Source of the DNA: Octopus sinensis
Taxonomy: Eukaryota
Reading direction: 5' to 3'
DNA length: 64,000 nt
Assembly (NCBI RefSeq): GCF_006345805.1
Contig: NC_043001.1
Span: 84,072,001-84,136,000 of the forward strand
The position numbers were made by a program. Each line of letters begins with the position of its first letter. Positions within the stretch are counted from its first letter, which is position 1. Of this stretch, positions 6,001 through 57,000 are shown piece after piece.

Positions 6001-9000
6001 GGCACAAGGCCCGAAATTTTGGGGGAGGGGGCCAGTCGATTAGATCCACCCCAGGACGCAACTGGTACTTCATTTATCGACCCTGAAGGGATGAAAGGCA
6101 AGTTGACCTGTTGTTGTTGTTGCCAAGGTACTAGTTTTAGTAGTGGCTATAGTGATTTTTATAGCATTAGTGGTTGCAGTTGTTCCGGTGGTAGTTGTTA
6201 TTGTGGTAGTGTTAGTAGTAGCGGTAACTTTGGAGGTCGTTATTGTTCCTAGTGTTGGTGGTTGTTGTTATAGTAGTAGTAGTAGTAGTAGAAGTAGTGG
6301 TGGTGGTGGTGGTGGTGGTGGTGGTGGTGGTGGTGGTGGTAGTAGTGGTGGCAGTCGTAGTAGTATTAGTGGTAGTGATGATGATAGTAATAGTTGTGGT
6401 TCTTGTTGAGGAAGTGTTTGCTGTTATGGCAGTAGTTGTAGTGGTTGCTGTAGTGGTTTTATCGTATTGGTGGTCGTTATTATTGTTCTAGTGTCGGCAG
6501 TTGTTATAGCAGCGGCAGCAGCAGCAGCAGCAGTAGTAGTAAAGTAGTAGTAGTAGTAGTAGTAGTGATGGTGATGATGGGGGTGATAGTTATTGTTATA
6601 GTAATAGCTAAAGTGATGGTGGTGGTGGTGGTGGTGGTAGTGGTGGTAGTTGATTTAGTAGTATTAATTATAATTATGATGAGACTAAAACCGTTGTTGT
6701 TTAGCCACCACACCCTCCAAGTCAACCTTGATCGAAGAGGTTAACTTTTAATCAAAAGCCTGCCAAGTATGACCACCCCATCTGTTTAGCAGACGTCTAG
6801 GAAACTACATTATCCAAGACAACAAAAGTGCAGTTGTTATTGCTATTACTTACTGCCTCATCTGAATTTAGCCCCGACCGAGTAACTTCAACATCAAAGA
6901 CGCTCCAAATATGACGATCCCATCATGTTTTCAGACGAGGTTGTCAGCTGCTATTCCTGTTGTTTTGCTGTTCGTGATGGGGCCCGTTGTTGTTACTATT
7001 GCTGCTGCTACTACTACTACTGCTGCTGCTGCTGTTGTCGTTGTTGCTGTTGTTGTTGTTATTGTCGTTGTAGTCGTTGTTTCTCTTGTTGCGTCGTTTA
7101 GCAACCAGGTCAGGCTTGATCGAGCACACCTATGATAAAAAGCACCCAGCTGTGACCATTTCGTCATTTTTGTGTTTTTGTTGGTTTTGTTTTTTGTTCA
7201 TACATGACTGTGTGGTAAGACGCTTACTTTCAAACCACATGGTCCCGGATTCAGACCCACTGTGTGTGGCACGTTAGGCAAGACTTCGTATATATATATA
7301 TATATATATATATATATATATATATATATATATAACGGGAAGGTTTACGAAAATAAACAAAAGACGAAGGCAGGTGGAGTACAAACAAGCAAATGCATTA
7401 GTATGGCGCTCAGAAATAGAAATAGAACAAGTCGTTTACGTTTCGAGCCTACGCTCTTCGACAGAAAGATACACAGAAAAAAAAAAAAGCAAGGAGAGAA
7501 AAAAATGCGTGTAGGAGCTAACGATCTATCATATGTATATAATATACTGCCACGCTTTTTGATGGAATCCTTTTCTGTAGAGAAAGGGACTTCATCCTAT
7601 ATTGTTAGTAGTAAACTCACTGCTTGTTACAAGGGGACCGGTAACCATTACAATATGTAGCGGCGAAAGGTCAACACGTTGTTCTGAAACTGACCAAGGA
7701 ATTTTTATTTTTAGATATAAATGATGTACTTAAATTTAGTTATGTTTTTAGCTTCTGCTTTTTCCATGATCACATGTGAGTATTTTATTTATATTCCCTC
7801 GTAAGCTCTACTGAAGAAGAATGTATCCTTTATAGGATTAATTCTGAAATTGATTCAATATAGAGATAACGAAATTTAAATTTTCTAAAGCTTAGTTGCC
7901 CGCTTTCAGTTCAATTTTCCTGTAACAAGTGGATTATAAGTGGATAAAGCAGTGTATTGGCTTTAGAATAACACTCTTTAGCCCTTAATTATAAGATGTT
8001 TATACTTCAACCGTAAAGGTTTTTTTAATATACTGCCACGCTTTTTGATGGAATCCTTTTCTGTACAGAAAGGGACTTCATCCTATATTGTTAGTAGTAT
8101 ATATATATATATATATATATATATATATATATATATATATATATATATATATATATATATTATATATAATATATATATATATATATTATATATTATATAT
8201 ATATATATAATATATATATATATATATATATATAATATATATATATATATATATATATATATATATATATATATATATATATATATATATATATATATAT
8301 AATATATATTATATTATATATATATATATATATATATACATATATATATATAGGCGCAGGAGTGGCTGTGTGGTAAGTAGTTTGCTTACCAGCCACATGG
8401 TCCTGGGTCAGTCCCACTGCGTGGAACCTTGGGCAAATATCTTCTACTACAGCCTCGGACCAACCAAAGCCTTGTGAGTGGATTTAGTAGACGGAAACTG
8501 AAAGATCGTTATATATATATATATATATATATATATATATATATATATATATATATATATATATAACTAATAGCGACAAAAGCAGTAATGAATAGAAAAA
8601 GTAATCTTTAATCTCCAGTTTAATGAGGAGGATGTGCTAAAACACAGAATACTGCGTTATTTATGGTGAGAGGATCTCTCATAAGGGCTCGTGGTTTGTA
8701 AAATTACATCGTTGACAGACGATCGTTTGCTGCCATATCACGTGATTTCACCTTACTATGGGTTCCTCTGTGACATACGTTATGTTTTAATAAGCCTGCT
8801 GGCTATTTGTGACACTAATACCTGGACAGTTGCTAATATTCTATATATCGCTGACGGGAGATTCTGCTGTTATGTCATTCATGGACATGATTGAAACATA
8901 CATACATACATACTATATATATAGTGAGATGGACCTATGGACCTCTAAGGTCCTTACACATCAGATAAAAGATTCCTAGATTGTTTTATACCAGAATGTG

Positions 9001-54000: not shown

Positions 54001-57000
54001 ATATACATGAATATATATATATAAATAAATATATATATATATATATATATATATATATATTATATATATATATATAATATACTTGTGTAGGTATACGAGC
54101 ATGACTGTATGAATACACATACATATAATAAACACACACACACGAACACACATATAATGAAGATGTTGGCACAAAGAGTCAACAAAAAAAAAACCCCAAA
54201 AAACTTATGGGCAAAGACAAAAAGAATGGAAAAACACAAAACATGCTTAAACTATCATCCGGTGCCAACCAGTTATCAAAATATCATTACATGTATATAT
54301 ATATATATATATATATATATATATATATATATATATATATATATATGTATATATATATATATACTTATTTAAAGCAGCAGAAAATTCAACAAAACCTGAT
54401 ACTCTGAGTTTCCCGGAAAACTCAGAGTAACAGGTTTTGTTACTCTGTTACTCTACCACTGGTATTTGAGTACTCTTTTTTCCACCTTGTTTCACATTTA
54501 TGTGTTTACTCCGGTATTTATATATATATATATATATATATATTATATATAATATACATATATATATATCTATATATATATATATATATATATAATATAT
54601 ATATATATATATATATATATATATATATATATATATATATTATATATATATGTTTGATTTGAAAACCTCACTAGAATGAAGGAGAGAAAGCGCTAATGAT
54701 CTAAGTGATATGATAGATATATATAAAAAATGTAATATATGAATAAAATCTGTAAATATAAACCATCTGATCTGATGATTACCTAATTTCTTCTAATATA
54801 TATATAATATATATATATATATATATATATATATATATATATATAATATATAATATATAATATATATATATATATAATATATATATATATACATATATTA
54901 CATATACATATACATCTATCTATCTATCTATCTATCTATCTATCTATCTATCTATCTATCTATCTATCTATCTATCTATCTATCTATCTGTCTATCTATA
55001 GTTTATCGAAGGGAATCAGATATTTTCTGTATAGAATACACTTAGTATTGCTCAAGTGGTTTAAACTTGAGCGGGTAGAGAAGTAGATGTAAGGATAAGC
55101 GAGTTAGGTAAGTCTAAGCACGAGGTATGATCAATAGGTATCCGGATTCTTGCCATAGTAACGAAGCCAAAGCACGTATAGTGGAGCCATTTGGCACAGA
55201 TTGACCTTGAACGCTGTTGTGCATGCGCACTAAGTTTTAGCGTTCTCGATCGCTTCCAATGTTTACAGTAGTGTATGGAAGGAAGGTGTGTAGCGTGACC
55301 ATGACAGAGAAAGTTGAGCAGAGATTCTGCATCAAATTTTGCCAAAAATTTGGCGATACCAGCTTAGAAATGAACGCAAAGTTTTCAAAAAGTTTTTATC
55401 GTTCTCGACACAATCAAGATCTTGTGCAACTGAAACCCGAGTTTCTTCTTGGTCAGATGAAAGCAGTTTTGGCACAAACTTAGCAGACACGTGTCTCGTA
55501 CCCAAATCTTCAATGATAATGGACTGAACTGAACCGTACCTAATCAACACATCTTCTGATAACTCATAGATGGTGATTCAACGATTTCTCCTCACAGTTG
55601 CACGCACATCTGTGATGATTTTTTCAGTCTAGCTGTTCGTTACTGTCGAAGCTTTTTCAGCTCATACACTCCTCTCCATACTCTTTCAGCAACTTTGCGT
55701 AGGCCTCTGAGCAGGTATCACCAAGCTTTTGGCAAAATTTGATGCAGAATCATGGTAAGTGTGACGAACACACACCACACGCGTTAAAACTTTGTGCACA
55801 TGCGCAGCGGCGTTCAAGGTCAATACTTGCCAAGCAGCTTTTACAATGACAATAGTCCGGGTACTTAATGATCAGACCTTGTAAATTAAATACATGAAAT
55901 ATAAAAAAATGTATATATCTTTACATAGAAAAAGGTCCACAGAGTAGAAGTGATATCAAGAATTAAAGGTGTTGAAGAAAAGTATAACAAATCCAACAAC
56001 TGTTTTCGGGGGCTCGGTAGTCCAAAATGATGTTTGTAGATTGATTCCATCGTCGGATGAGACGAGCCTCCATCTTCAGAGAAGAGATCATACATATGCA
56101 GTGTTGACAGAAAGAAGCTGAAATAAATACACCCCCCCACACACACGCACACGCACACAAACATTAATGTTTGTTTATACCTGTCGATTAGTAACAGAAC
56201 TATTTTACACAAAATTAATCAATATATTGTGACTTCGAAGTTACGGCTTGCTAGCAGTCAACGTCCGAAGAAGGCTTGTAAGCCGTAACTTCGAAGTCAC
56301 TGTCACACTCCTCTTGCAAAAGCATACTACACACAGACACACACACACACAACACACACAGATACATACAAAAAACGCACGTACACAGAGATAAACCTGC
56401 ATCTATCTACCTATCTATCTATCTATCTATCTATCTATCTATCTATCTATATGTATATTTGTATGTGTATACATACATACACGTATGTATATATATAAAT
56501 ACGCGTATATATCTATATCTATATCTATATGTATGTGTGTGTGAGCAACCCGCGCTCTTAACCACTACGCCATATGCCCACGGGCATATGGCGTAGTGTT
56601 CGATTCCAGGCAGTGACTACTACTACTACTACTACTACTACTACTACTACTACTACTAATAATAATAATAATAATAATAATAATAATAATAATAACATCG
56701 AAAAATACCTTAGGAATGAGAACCCAGGTTGATTATTATGTGTTGGGCGCAGTTAAGCGAGAGACCAACAAAACTCCTTGTAAAACCAAAGATGAACTGA
56801 AGGTATGGATTATAGCAGCATTCACCAACTTAAACAAGGAGACCGCCCAGAAGAGTTGCAGGAGATTCCGAAGACGTCTGGCGGCCTTGAAGCCAATGGT
56901 AATTTTATTGAATGAATTTTCTCTTTATTACTGCAAGATCTTTTTATGTAATTTTGGTAAATTTATCTGTTAAAATGAGATGTTAGTGTTATTTTCATTT

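What the first reader, a model, noticed from the sequence alone, without database searches (positions are those of the whole stretch)
7433..56300. About 25 hammerhead-ribozyme-like motifs in 64 kb: a diverse Penelope-associated retrozyme-like system
Seen: three-stem type I folds with core plus GAAA plus NUH. Strongest are 7806, 48946 and 51851. Plausible are 10094, 11355, 19567, 19846/20732, 30777/32556, 41198 and 48367. Variant or decayed are 7433, 9208, 9885, 10945, 22122, 22453, 27001, 48124, 48551, 49723, 55991 and 56262. Stem sequences differ between families, yet pairing is kept. Established: Penelope-like elements and metazoan retrozymes carry minimal type I hammerheads. Inference: many unrelated short non-coding families here use a Penelope RT/GIY-YIG and target (TA)n tracts. 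I do not know of this diversity being catalogued for this lineage.
Basis: partly seen in the sequence, partly recalled or inferred. Interest (0 to 1): 0.92.

Follow-up and report, generated by a model that had tools for sequence, protein, structure and literature searches.

The report
Hammerhead ribozyme relics of Penelope elements
This repeat-rich stretch of animal DNA is littered with short, mostly decayed copies of Penelope-type jumping genes that each carry a small self-cutting RNA motif, a real pattern that was already described in 2014.

Summary
A strict type I hammerhead descriptor finds 3 sites (7806+, 48946-, 51851-) against 0.02 expected, with 0 of 300 shuffles reaching 3. A stem-free descriptor (core box, GAA, palindromic helix III, H) finds 14 to 17 sites against 2.1 to 2.4 expected. 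Six more are diverged copies of motif-bearing repeats, one is weak, and two (41198, 56262) are unsupported. The homologous motifs at 7806 and 51851 differ by changes on both sides in 7 of 10 stem I/II pairs. The motifs lie 60-250 nt from the 3' ends of short non-coding elements. These are often head-to-head inverted pairs, and 7 of 15 ends abut (TA)n. One pair encloses a broken ORF with the Penelope endonuclease signature. No reverse transcriptase, no tandem array with intact motifs and no Rfam hammerhead hit was found. The unpaired base after A9, G10.1-C11.1, palindromic helix III, U3-A8 cores, opposite-strand pairs and many families per genome are all in Cervera and de la Pena 2014. Verdict: genuine, mostly fossil Penelope-like hammerhead elements; new members of a known kind; low interest.

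The parts
7806..7865 (+). Canonical type I hammerhead motif: stem I 5 bp, helix II 5 bp plus an inner hairpin, 11-nt odd-palindromic helix III, H17 = A
   Evidence: Strict descriptor, shuffles, covariation with 51851. No Rfam hit.
7540..8099 (+). Non-coding element carrying the 7806 motif. The 486-bp unit is 7614-8099. Its last 74 bp are repeated upstream at 7540-7613 (98.6%). It ends on (TA)n.
   Evidence: Self-BLAST and sequence; TRF (TA)n at 8098-8352.
48946..49007 (-). Canonical-core type I motif: stem I 5 bp, helix II 4 bp closing a 22-nt loop, 11-nt palindromic helix III, GAUC cleavage context. A duplicated 5' box allows a competing fold.
   Evidence: The MFE prefers another fold. RAGATH-1-hammerhead scores 12.9 bits, E=8.5.
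51851..51911 (-). Canonical type I motif: stem I 6 bp, helix II 4 G-C pairs, 11-nt palindromic helix III
   Evidence: No Rfam hit.
51735..52115 (.). Head-to-head inverted pair (381 bp, 89.6%) of 5'-truncated tails. The minus arm holds the 51851 motif; the plus arm holds a copy with an altered 5' core box.
27001..27035 (+). Family C minimal hammerhead-like block: core CCGACGA (U4 to C), unpaired A after A9, helix II 4 bp with G10.1-C11.1, helix III = ACGU palindrome, stem I 4 bp
48551..48585 (+). Family C copy, same block
   Evidence: No Rfam hammerhead hit.
9208..9242 (-). Family C copy. The loop of helix II differs by one base.
7433..7468 (-). Family C2 block: core CUGUCGA (A6 to U), otherwise the same architecture, stem I only 2 bp
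49723..49758 (-). Family C2 copy: core CUGUUGA, helix II kept through a G-U pair
10894..11451 (.). Family D head-to-head pair (arms 10894-11093 minus and 11252-11451 plus, 90%). Hammerhead-like blocks are at 10945-10994(-) and 11355-11404(+). Each arm has its own disabling change, and together they imply an intact ancestor with an unpaired A after A9 and an ACGU helix III.
30684..32689 (-). 5'-truncated Penelope-like copy with an inverted partial copy. The arms are 30684-30922(-) and 32452-32689(+), 95% identical. The U3-A8 hammerhead-like blocks are at 30778-30817(-) and 32556-32595(+).
31398..32290 (-). Broken ORF (two frames) with CX4CX2C followed by a GIY..CxxC..YVG signature: a Penelope-type GIY-YIG endonuclease remnant
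   Evidence: By eye, judged against the criteria in Craig 2021. Atlas lead 0.96. Pfam, PHROGs, PDB and AF2 gave nothing.
48068..48462 (.). Head-to-head palindrome (395 bp, 85%). The right arm has a U3-A8 block at 48365-48409(+); the left arm has a decayed copy at 48124-48166(-). It shares the 3' terminus and the block with the 30684-32689 element.
19759..20854 (.). Family F head-to-head pair (arms 19759-19968 minus and 20647-20854 plus, 89%). The blocks are at 19847-19883(-) and 20732-20768(+): canonical core, U-U at the base of helix II, AGCGCU helix III, stem I 3 bp.
   Evidence: No Rfam hit for the left arm.
19567..19651 (+). Canonical core, stem I 6 bp, GUC site, 8-nt palindromic helix III, and a long imperfect helix II
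   Evidence: No Rfam hit.
10108..10187 (+). Canonical core, A-A at the base of a 5-bp helix II with a 46-nt loop, 8-nt palindromic helix III, stem I 4 bp
   Evidence: and hand parse of the sequence.
22122..22497 (+). Decayed two-copy tandem (period about 331 bp) with CUGAUGA blocks at 22122-22168 and 22453-22497. The first has a 10-nt palindromic helix III but lacks G12. The second has GAAC in place of GAAA.
55991..56084 (-). Canonical core, unpaired U after A9, 9-bp helix II with one mismatch. It fits only with an extra A before A15.1.
8731..8775 (-). New candidate: core CAGAGGA (U4 to A), stem I 5 bp, 10-nt palindromic helix III, inside a roughly 470-bp unit between two (TA)n tracts
54652..54795 (+). 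New: a 145-bp unit between (TA)n tracts. It holds the F-type 3' half first and the F-type 5' half about 95 nt later.

Best explanation
The window is repeat-rich animal (invertebrate-like) DNA. It holds at least ten sequence families of short, non-coding, 5'-truncated or non-autonomous derivatives of Penelope-like retroelements (PLEs). Each carries a type I hammerhead motif 60-250 nt upstream of its 3' end.

Shown here:
- The motifs exceed chance.
- Two homologous copies covary in their stems.
- In family C/C2 the motif block is the best conserved part of the element.
- 3' ends favour (TA)n.
- Many copies are head-to-head inverted pairs.
- One pair encloses a PLE-type endonuclease remnant.

Inferred from the PLE literature:
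- A PLE reverse transcriptase/GIY-YIG enzyme encoded elsewhere in the genome nicked (TA)n and copied the RNA from its 3' end.
- Template switching during that copying produced the partial tandems and the inverted 5'-truncated partners.
- The hammerhead cuts more-than-unit-length transcripts after position 17 to release unit RNA. The palindromic helix III would let two motifs pair as a dimer.

Most copies here are now inactive relics, because paired arms differ by 5-15% and carry private core mutations.
For: 1. Excess over chance. Strict descriptor: 3 sites vs 0.02 expected, 0 of 300 shuffles reach 3. Relaxed: 6 vs 0.57. Stem-free: 14 vs 2.07 and 17 vs 2.44, 0 of 300.

2. Covariation. The regions around 7806 and 51851 align at 80% mean column identity. 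In stems I and II, 7 of 10 pairs change on both sides, and 27 of 28 cells across all 14 pairs of the three helices are paired. Slid controls give 1 such pair each.

3. Block conservation. In C vs C2 the block is 72.7% identical, against 37.7% and 43.4% for the rest of the element.

4. Features that were not in my strict descriptor match those listed by Cervera and de la Pena 2014:
- an unpaired base between 9 and 10.1 (C, C2, D, 10094, 55991);
- G10.1-C11.1 (C, D, E, 19567, 48946, 51851);
- palindromic helix III in all of them;
- U3-A8 cores (30778-30817, 32556-32595, 48365-48409);
- opposite-strand pairs about 210 to 1750 bp apart.

5. (TA)n>=4 lies within 5 bp of 7 of 15 element 3' ends, against a 6.5% background (P about 2e-5). 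(TA)n is the stated PLE target.

6. The ORF at 31398-32290(-) has CX4CX2C and two Cys between GIY and YIG. An Atlas cluster at 0.96 carries PF01541 in 10% of its members.

7. The 48068-48462 palindrome shares its 3' terminus and its motif block with that element.
Against: Rfam found no hammerhead family at gathering score in the whole window. Short scans over 7806, 51851, 19567, 19846, 48367 and 48551 found none at E<=10. At 48946 only RAGATH-1-hammerhead appeared, at 12.9 bits against a gathering score of 56.3.

No RT or GIY-YIG Pfam hit came from 150 ORFs. The endonuclease call rests on motifs read by eye plus one Atlas lead. Pfam, PHROGs, PDB, a second Atlas query and an AF2 model (pLDDT 35.7) gave nothing.

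Only 3 motifs are fully canonical:
- Family C has U4 to C in 3 of 3 copies.
- C2 has A6 to U in 2 of 2 copies.
- The E arms and 55991 need an extra A or a G17.
- F has 3-bp stems.

The MFE fold of 48946 is not the hammerhead. About 5 to 8 descriptor hits are at chance level. I chose the element ends for the (TA)n count by hand. The two copies in the covariation test are a sample of two. No cleavage, RNA or genome-wide data were available.
Confidence: 0.8

Rival explanations
1. An active retrozyme system. The elements would be tandem non-LTR retrozymes that are transcribed, self-cleave, circularise and are still spreading.
For: The 7806 unit has a partial tandem (1.15 copies). 22122/22453 is a two-copy tandem. 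The unit 54652-54795 looks circularly permuted relative to family F. Li et al. 2026 (abstract and introduction read) derive animal retrozymes from PLE repeats.
Against: No array has two consecutive units with intact motifs, which is the working definition in that preprint's methods. The only dimer has lost G12 in one unit and A15.1 in the other. Arms of pairs are 5-15% diverged. TRF finds no other long-period array carrying a motif.
Confidence: 0.1
2. Foldback or MITE-type DNA transposons. The palindromic pairs would be long terminal inverted repeats of DNA elements, and the hammerhead likeness of their arms would be incidental.
For: Several pairs are near-perfect palindromes through the centre (48068-48462, 51735-52115). 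A similar palindrome at 52311-52539 in a TA-rich site has no hammerhead motif. Mariner-like fragments occur in the window (by eye).
Against: One pair encloses a PLE-type endonuclease remnant on the same strand as its motif. The canonical 51851 motif covaries with the non-palindromic 7806 element. Family C copies are single, not paired. Inverted 5'-truncated partners are a described PLE feature.
Confidence: 0.05
3. Chance matches to a short degenerate motif in AT-rich, repeat-rich DNA.
For: Rfam models do not recognise any candidate. The loosest descriptor gives 6.03 hits per shuffle. 41198 and 56262 do not hold up.
Against: 0 of 300 shuffles reach the strict or the stem-free counts. Further evidence is the compensatory changes, block conservation across diverged families, and extra literature features that were not selected for.
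Confidence: 0.03

Closest known systems
Minimal hammerheads of metazoan Penelope-like elements (Cervera and de la Pena 2014, PMC4209133; parts 1-2 of 4 read)
   Same: Type I topology. Short stem I. Unpaired base between A9 and 10.1. G10.1-C11.1. Palindromic 15.2-16.2 and loop 3. U3-A8 core variant. Pairs on opposite strands a few hundred bp apart. Mostly single motifs in truncated elements. Many heterogeneous families within one genome.
   Different: Three motifs here have a longer helix III (an 11-nt odd palindrome, or 4 bp plus a 3-nt loop as a hairpin) and long helix II inserts. Families C and C2 carry family-wide U4-to-C or A6-to-U cores. I could not compare sequences with the published families, because the figures are not held and supplements are closed.
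EN+ Penelope-like elements of the Neptune/Nematis type (Craig et al. 2021, PMC8557442; passages read)
   Same: CX2-5CxxC linker motif. Two cysteines between GIY and YIG. (TA)n insertion bias. Pseudo-LTRs and inverted 5'-truncated partner copies. Hammerhead near the 3' end.
   Different: No RT is present in the window. The ORF is frameshifted and 5'-truncated. The clade cannot be assigned without an RT phylogeny. By endonuclease alone, Naiad ENs are said to be indistinguishable from Neptune ENs.
Metazoan non-LTR retrozymes (Cervera and de la Pena 2020, PMC7229834, passages; Li et al. 2026 preprint, part 1 of 5)
   Same: Short (about 150-500 bp), AT-rich, non-coding units with a type I hammerhead. 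A U-U mismatch at the base of helix II is reported for an axolotl family, as in family F here.
   Different: Retrozymes are tandem arrays with a motif in every unit and are expressed as circRNA. Here there are solo copies, head-to-head pairs and one decayed dimer, and expression is unknown.
SINE-like hammerhead elements of schistosomes (mentioned; details recalled)
   Same: Family D joins a tRNA-like head with a hammerhead-bearing body and tail.
   Different: Only two arms and one partial copy were seen, and the motifs are decayed. Pol III promoter function was not tested.

Membership tests
Hammerhead ribozyme, type I | Conserved core: C3 U4 G5 A6 N7 G8 A9, G12 A13 A14, A15.1-U16.1, H17 | tested here: met
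   Met in full by 7806, 48946 and 51851. The core boxes are also met by 10094, 19567, 19846, 20732 and 11355. Not met by C (U4C), C2 (A6U), 10945 (C3U alone), 22122 or 22453.
Hammerhead ribozyme, type I | Three helices around the core, with helix I open | tested here: met
   Stems >=5/4/4 bp in the three canonical sites; 0 of 300 shuffles have any such hit. Covariation in stems I and II.
Hammerhead ribozyme, type I | Match to the curated covariance models (Rfam hammerhead families) | tested here: not met
   0 hits at gathering score in 64 kb. No Hammerhead_1/3/II/HH9/HH10 hit at E<=10 in five short scans. Only RAGATH-1-hammerhead at 12.9 bits vs a gathering score of 56.3.
Hammerhead ribozyme, type I | Self-cleavage after position 17 | not testable with these tools
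   Needs transcription and cleavage assays.
PLE minimal hammerhead (Cervera and de la Pena 2014) | [quoted passage not shown] | tested here: met
   An A in C (3 of 3 copies), C2 (2 of 2), D (2 of 2) and 10094; a U in 55991. Absent in the three canonical motifs, E and F.
PLE minimal hammerhead (Cervera and de la Pena 2014) | Palindromic 15.2-16.2 / loop 3, allowing a dimeric helix III | tested here: met
   Palindromes of 4, 6, 8, 10 and 11 nt. Stem-free count 14 vs 2.07 in shuffles. Dimer formation itself was not tested.
PLE minimal hammerhead (Cervera and de la Pena 2014) | Location in the flanking repeats or tails of a PLE | tested here: inconclusive
   Shown for one element only (30684-32689, which has an endonuclease remnant). 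The others have PLE-like architecture but no coding part.
Penelope-like element | Telomerase-like reverse transcriptase domain | tested here: not met
   0 of 150 ORFs (>=55 aa, low-complexity ones removed) hit an RT family in Pfam.
Penelope-like element | GIY-YIG endonuclease with CCHH (two Cys between GIY and YIG) and an upstream CX2-5CxxC | tested here: inconclusive
   The motifs are present by eye in 31643-32290(-), judged against Craig 2021. Atlas lead 0.96. No Pfam, PHROGs or PDB hit, and the fold model was poor.
Penelope-like element | Pseudo-LTRs or inverted 5'-truncated partner copies, and microsatellite (TA)n target bias | tested here: met
   Five head-to-head pairs and one partial tandem. 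7 of 15 3' ends lie on (TA)n vs a 6.5% background.
Non-LTR retrozyme | Tandem repeats with a complete type I hammerhead in at least two consecutive units | tested here: not met
   Only a 1.15-mer (7540-8099) and a dimer with both motifs damaged (22122/22453).
Non-LTR retrozyme | Expression as small circular RNA | not testable with these tools
   No RNA data.

The most novel reading that the evidence does not exclude
The non-consensus cores may be functional variants rather than decay. Family C (U4 to C in 3 of 3 independent insertions) and C2 (A6 to U in 2 of 2) amplified with these cores, while the block stayed the best conserved part of the element. The E-type elements and 55991 share an extra A before A15.1. 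Either these are new active core variants of the hammerhead, or the block serves the retroelement in a way that does not need canonical cleavage, such as dimerisation or recognition by the reverse transcriptase. A second possibility is that the local density (about 20 motifs in 64 kb) holds genome-wide. This genome would then be among the richest in hammerhead motifs known.
Probability: 0.12. Interest if true: 0.5.

Novelty: new member of a known kind. Interest (0 to 1): 0.2.

Why it matters
It adds a well-documented local example of how Penelope-like elements and their non-autonomous derivatives pile up at (TA)n microsatellites. It also gives clear stem covariation between two related hammerhead families. 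Nothing here changes the picture drawn in 2014-2021. The family-wide non-consensus cores (U4C, A6U, an extra A before A15.1) would be cheap to test in vitro. Such tests bear on an open question raised in those papers: whether PLE hammerheads are needed for transposition or merely ride along.

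Tried and rejected
Rfam. The whole window at gathering score gave 0 matches. In E-value mode there were 387 matches. The 150 listed were nearly all microsatellite look-alikes of miRNA models, and the other 237 were not shown. Five short scans gave no hammerhead family other than a 12.9-bit RAGATH-1-hammerhead match.

Thermodynamic folding. The MFE keeps stems I and II for 7806 and 51851 but not for 48946, and it says little for the minimal motifs. 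I did not use it as a criterion.

Endonuclease confirmation. All of the following gave nothing:
- Pfam on 10 ORFs and on 150 ORFs;
- PHROGs;
- PDB sequence search, where the only hits were N-myristoyltransferase at E about 0.8;
- an AF2 single-sequence model with pLDDT 35.7, too poor to be sent to a fold search.

First (TA)n count. It used BLAST ends rather than true element ends and gave 5 of 17. I replaced it with corrected ends and dropped the two C2 copies, whose ends I could not place. That gave 7 of 15.

MAFFT did not put the E and 48068-48462 motif blocks in register, so I compared them by hand.

My first hand parse of 10094 rejected it. The stem-free scan showed an 8-nt palindromic helix III and a 4-bp stem I, so I now rate it plausible.

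Rejected as unsupported: 41198 and 56262. Weak: 9885.

Not done:
Copy numbers, full-length PLEs and genome-wide covariation therefore stay unchecked.
- I did not try to establish the organism.
- Figures and supplements of the papers (published motif alignments) were not seen.
- No complex prediction was run.
- I ran no literature search for a lineage-specific catalogue.

Full report
WHAT IS THERE

The window has no N. It is AT-rich (26-48% GC per 2 kb) and packed with microsatellites (101 TRF rows) and short interspersed repeats (433 self-BLAST pairs).

Rfam at gathering score finds nothing at all. In E-value mode the 150 listed matches are nearly all microsatellite look-alikes of miRNA models.

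STATISTICS OF THE MOTIF

I wrote a strict type I hammerhead descriptor: CUGANGA, helix II of 3 bp or more, GAAA, a hairpin or palindromic helix III closed by A15.1-U16.1, H17, and stem I of 4 bp or more. It finds 3 sites among the 36 CUGANGA boxes on both strands.
- In 300 dinucleotide shuffles made in 2-kb blocks, the mean is 0.02 and the maximum 1.
- With the stems these sites actually have (>=5, 4, 4 bp), no shuffle gives any hit.

Allowing one core mismatch, the U3-A8 pair and one unpaired base after A9 gives 6 sites against 0.57. The three added sites are the copies of family C. Looser stems give 11 against 2.91 and 17 against 6.03 (100 shuffles). About 8 of those 17 are ordinary sequence, including a tRNA-derived SINE.

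A second, stem-free descriptor asks only for a canonical or U3-A8 core box, 9-75 nt, GAA, a helix III that is a palindrome, and H17. It finds 14 sites against 2.07. With one optional extra A it finds 17 against 2.44. Neither count is reached in 300 shuffles. The excess is therefore about a dozen sites beyond chance, not counting diverged copies that no descriptor catches.

- 15 are picked up by at least one descriptor.
- 6 are diverged partners of motif-bearing repeats seen by alignment: 10945 and 11355 (family D), 49723 (C2), 48124, 22122 and 22453.
- 9885 is weak.
- 41198 is only half a core next to (TA)n.
- 56262 is a plain hairpin.

I first rejected 10094 by hand and then accepted it as plausible. 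It has a canonical core, an A-A at the base of a 5-bp helix II, an 8-nt palindromic helix III and a 4-bp stem I.

EVIDENCE THAT THE STRUCTURE IS SELECTED

The regions around 7806 and 51851 are homologous, with 80% mean column identity. The flanks and core are nearly identical. Yet 4 of 5 stem I pairs and 3 of 5 helix II pairs differ on both sides while staying paired. Across all three helices, 27 of 28 cells are paired, and sliding the partner by 1-3 columns leaves one such pair each time. This is a sample of two sequences, so it is indicative only.

In family C (3 copies) against C2 (2 copies), the 36-column motif block is 72.7% identical while the rest of the element is 37.7% and 43.4%. Helix II is kept with four different loops and one G-U replacement.

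In family D each arm has its own disabling change. One has C3 to U and a stem I change; the other has a change at 15.2. Together the two arms imply an intact ancestor.

ANATOMY OF THE CARRIERS

Each motif lies 60-250 nt upstream of the 3' end of a short non-coding element.

Five carriers are head-to-head inverted pairs with the motif strands pointing outwards:
- 10894-11451;
- 19759-20854;
- 30684-32689;
- 48068-48462;
- 51735-52115.

Their arms are 85-95% identical.

The 7806 element is a 486-bp unit whose last 74 bp are repeated just upstream (98.6%). 22122/22453 is a decayed two-copy tandem.

Of 15 element 3' ends that I could place, 7 have (TA)n of 4 or more units within 5 bp, against 6.5% of window positions (binomial P about 2e-5). 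Ten of the 15 touch some microsatellite, against 18.5%. I placed the ends by hand, and the two C2 copies were dropped.

LINK TO PENELOPE-LIKE ELEMENTS

Between the arms of the 30684-32689 pair, on the strand of the left-arm motif, lies an ORF in two frames (31398-32290). It has CX4CX2C followed by a GIY-like triplet, CxxC and YVG.

Craig et al. 2021 (passages) state that PLE endonucleases are set apart by a CCHH finger whose two cysteines lie directly between GIY and YIG. They also state that Neptune, Nematis and Naiad elements have an upstream CX2-5CxxC, tied to (TA)n targeting.

The Atlas places the segment at 0.96 next to eukaryotic clusters, one of which has PF01541 in 10% of members. Pfam, PHROGs, the PDB, a second Atlas query and an AF2 model gave no support, so this assignment is moderate.

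The 48068-48462 palindrome shares both the motif block and the 3' terminus with this element, as a non-autonomous derivative would.

No reverse transcriptase is present. None of 150 ORFs hits an RT family.

COMPARISON WITH WHAT IS KNOWN

Cervera and de la Pena 2014 (parts 1-2 of 4 read) describe minimal type I hammerheads in the flanking repeats of PLEs and 'massive and widespread' in metazoan genomes. They describe:
- a short helix I;
- a conserved G10.1-C11.1;
- palindromic 15.2-16.2 and loop 3, taken to allow dimers;
- a U3-A8 covariation in place of C3-G8;
- dual motifs 100-700 bp apart on opposite strands;
- mostly single motifs in truncated elements;
- 'extreme sequence variability' with many consensus families per genome.

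Every one of these is seen here.

Craig et al. 2021 add the inverted 5'-truncated partner copies and the (TA)n bias. Cervera and de la Pena 2020 (passages) report thousands of motifs in 16 families in one coral, and a U-U mismatch at the base of helix II in an axolotl family, as in family F. Li et al. 2026 (part 1 of 5) derive animal retrozymes from PLE repeats.

The finding is therefore a new set of members of a known kind.

MECHANISM

Shown here: motif excess, covariation, block conservation, 3' position, pair and tandem architecture, and (TA)n adjacency.

Inferred from the cited work:
- target-primed reverse transcription by a PLE RT/EN at (TA)n;
- template switching giving partial tandems and inverted partners;
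- hammerhead self-cleavage of longer-than-unit transcripts, possibly as dimers through the palindromic helix III.

The 5-15% divergence between arms that were presumably identical at insertion, together with private core mutations, says most copies are old and inactive.

WHAT REMAINS ODD

- Family C has U4 to C in 3 of 3 independent insertions, and C2 has A6 to U in 2 of 2, although the block is the best conserved part of the element.
- The E arms and 55991 fit only with an extra A before A15.1, or with a G at position 17.
- 54652-54795 carries the F-type 3' half before the F-type 5' half, as a circularly permuted unit would.
- Family D has a tRNA-like head.

None of these could be followed up without the genome or the bench.

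LIMITS

The published alignments are in figures and supplements that I could not see. Hammerhead numbering and the tolerance of core changes are partly recalled knowledge.

Noticed in passing
window 4703-4870, 14295-14527, 23133-23364, 27319-27557, 47479-47709, 49310-49542 and about 15 more: A tRNA-derived SINE family (A- and B-box-like head) with about 20 copies. It also forms inverted pairs (4440-4865, 23196-23561). One loose hammerhead-descriptor hit (23361-23312) falls inside it and is chance.
   Followed up: partly
window 8313-8560, 16066-16490, 25582-25961, 30328-30684, 37285-37671, 38794-39187, 42717-43124 and others: A second interspersed repeat of about 400 bp with roughly 20 copies and an internal microsatellite. 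It carries no hammerhead motif.
   Followed up: no
window 3136-3784 (+) and 11969-12256 (-): LINE fragments. One is an AP-endonuclease piece, with weak Pfam Exo_endo_phos hits at E 0.004-0.03. The other is a C-terminal piece recognised only by eye.
   Followed up: partly
window 55064-55871 and 15197-15379: Mariner/Tc1-like transposase fragments recognised by eye, with short inverted repeats at 55191-55242/55782-55833. Pfam gave nothing.
   Followed up: no
window 52311-52539: A 229-bp palindrome (78%) in a TA-rich site with no hammerhead-like motif. It may be a foldback or MITE-type element.
   Followed up: no
window 54652-54795: A 145-bp unit between two (TA)n tracts. It carries the 12-nt 3' box of family F first and the 13-nt 5' box of family F about 95 nt later, as if cut from a tandem or circular template at another point.
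   Followed up: partly
window 11095-11190 and 56541-56735: Family D has a tRNA-like head and an internal (AAC/AAT/ACT)n. The copy at 56541-56735 has the head and upstream body but not the hammerhead part.
   Followed up: partly
window 48946-49007 (-): The 5' box and stem I strand are duplicated inside the loop of helix II. This gives a second, helix-II-less reading and a competing 7-bp hairpin.
   Followed up: partly
window 48682-48697: The family C copy (plus strand) and the 48946 element (minus strand) meet tail to tail on one short (TA)n run, so there were two insertions into the same microsatellite.
   Followed up: partly
window 26680-26803 and 29262-29385: An inverted repeat pair of 124 bp at 92.7%, 2.5 kb apart. 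It was not examined.
   Followed up: no
whole window: Dozens of sub-threshold Rfam miRNA matches (mir-297, mir-3149, mir-1277, mir-466) are (TA)n, (TG)n and (TACA)n microsatellites, not genes.
   Followed up: yes
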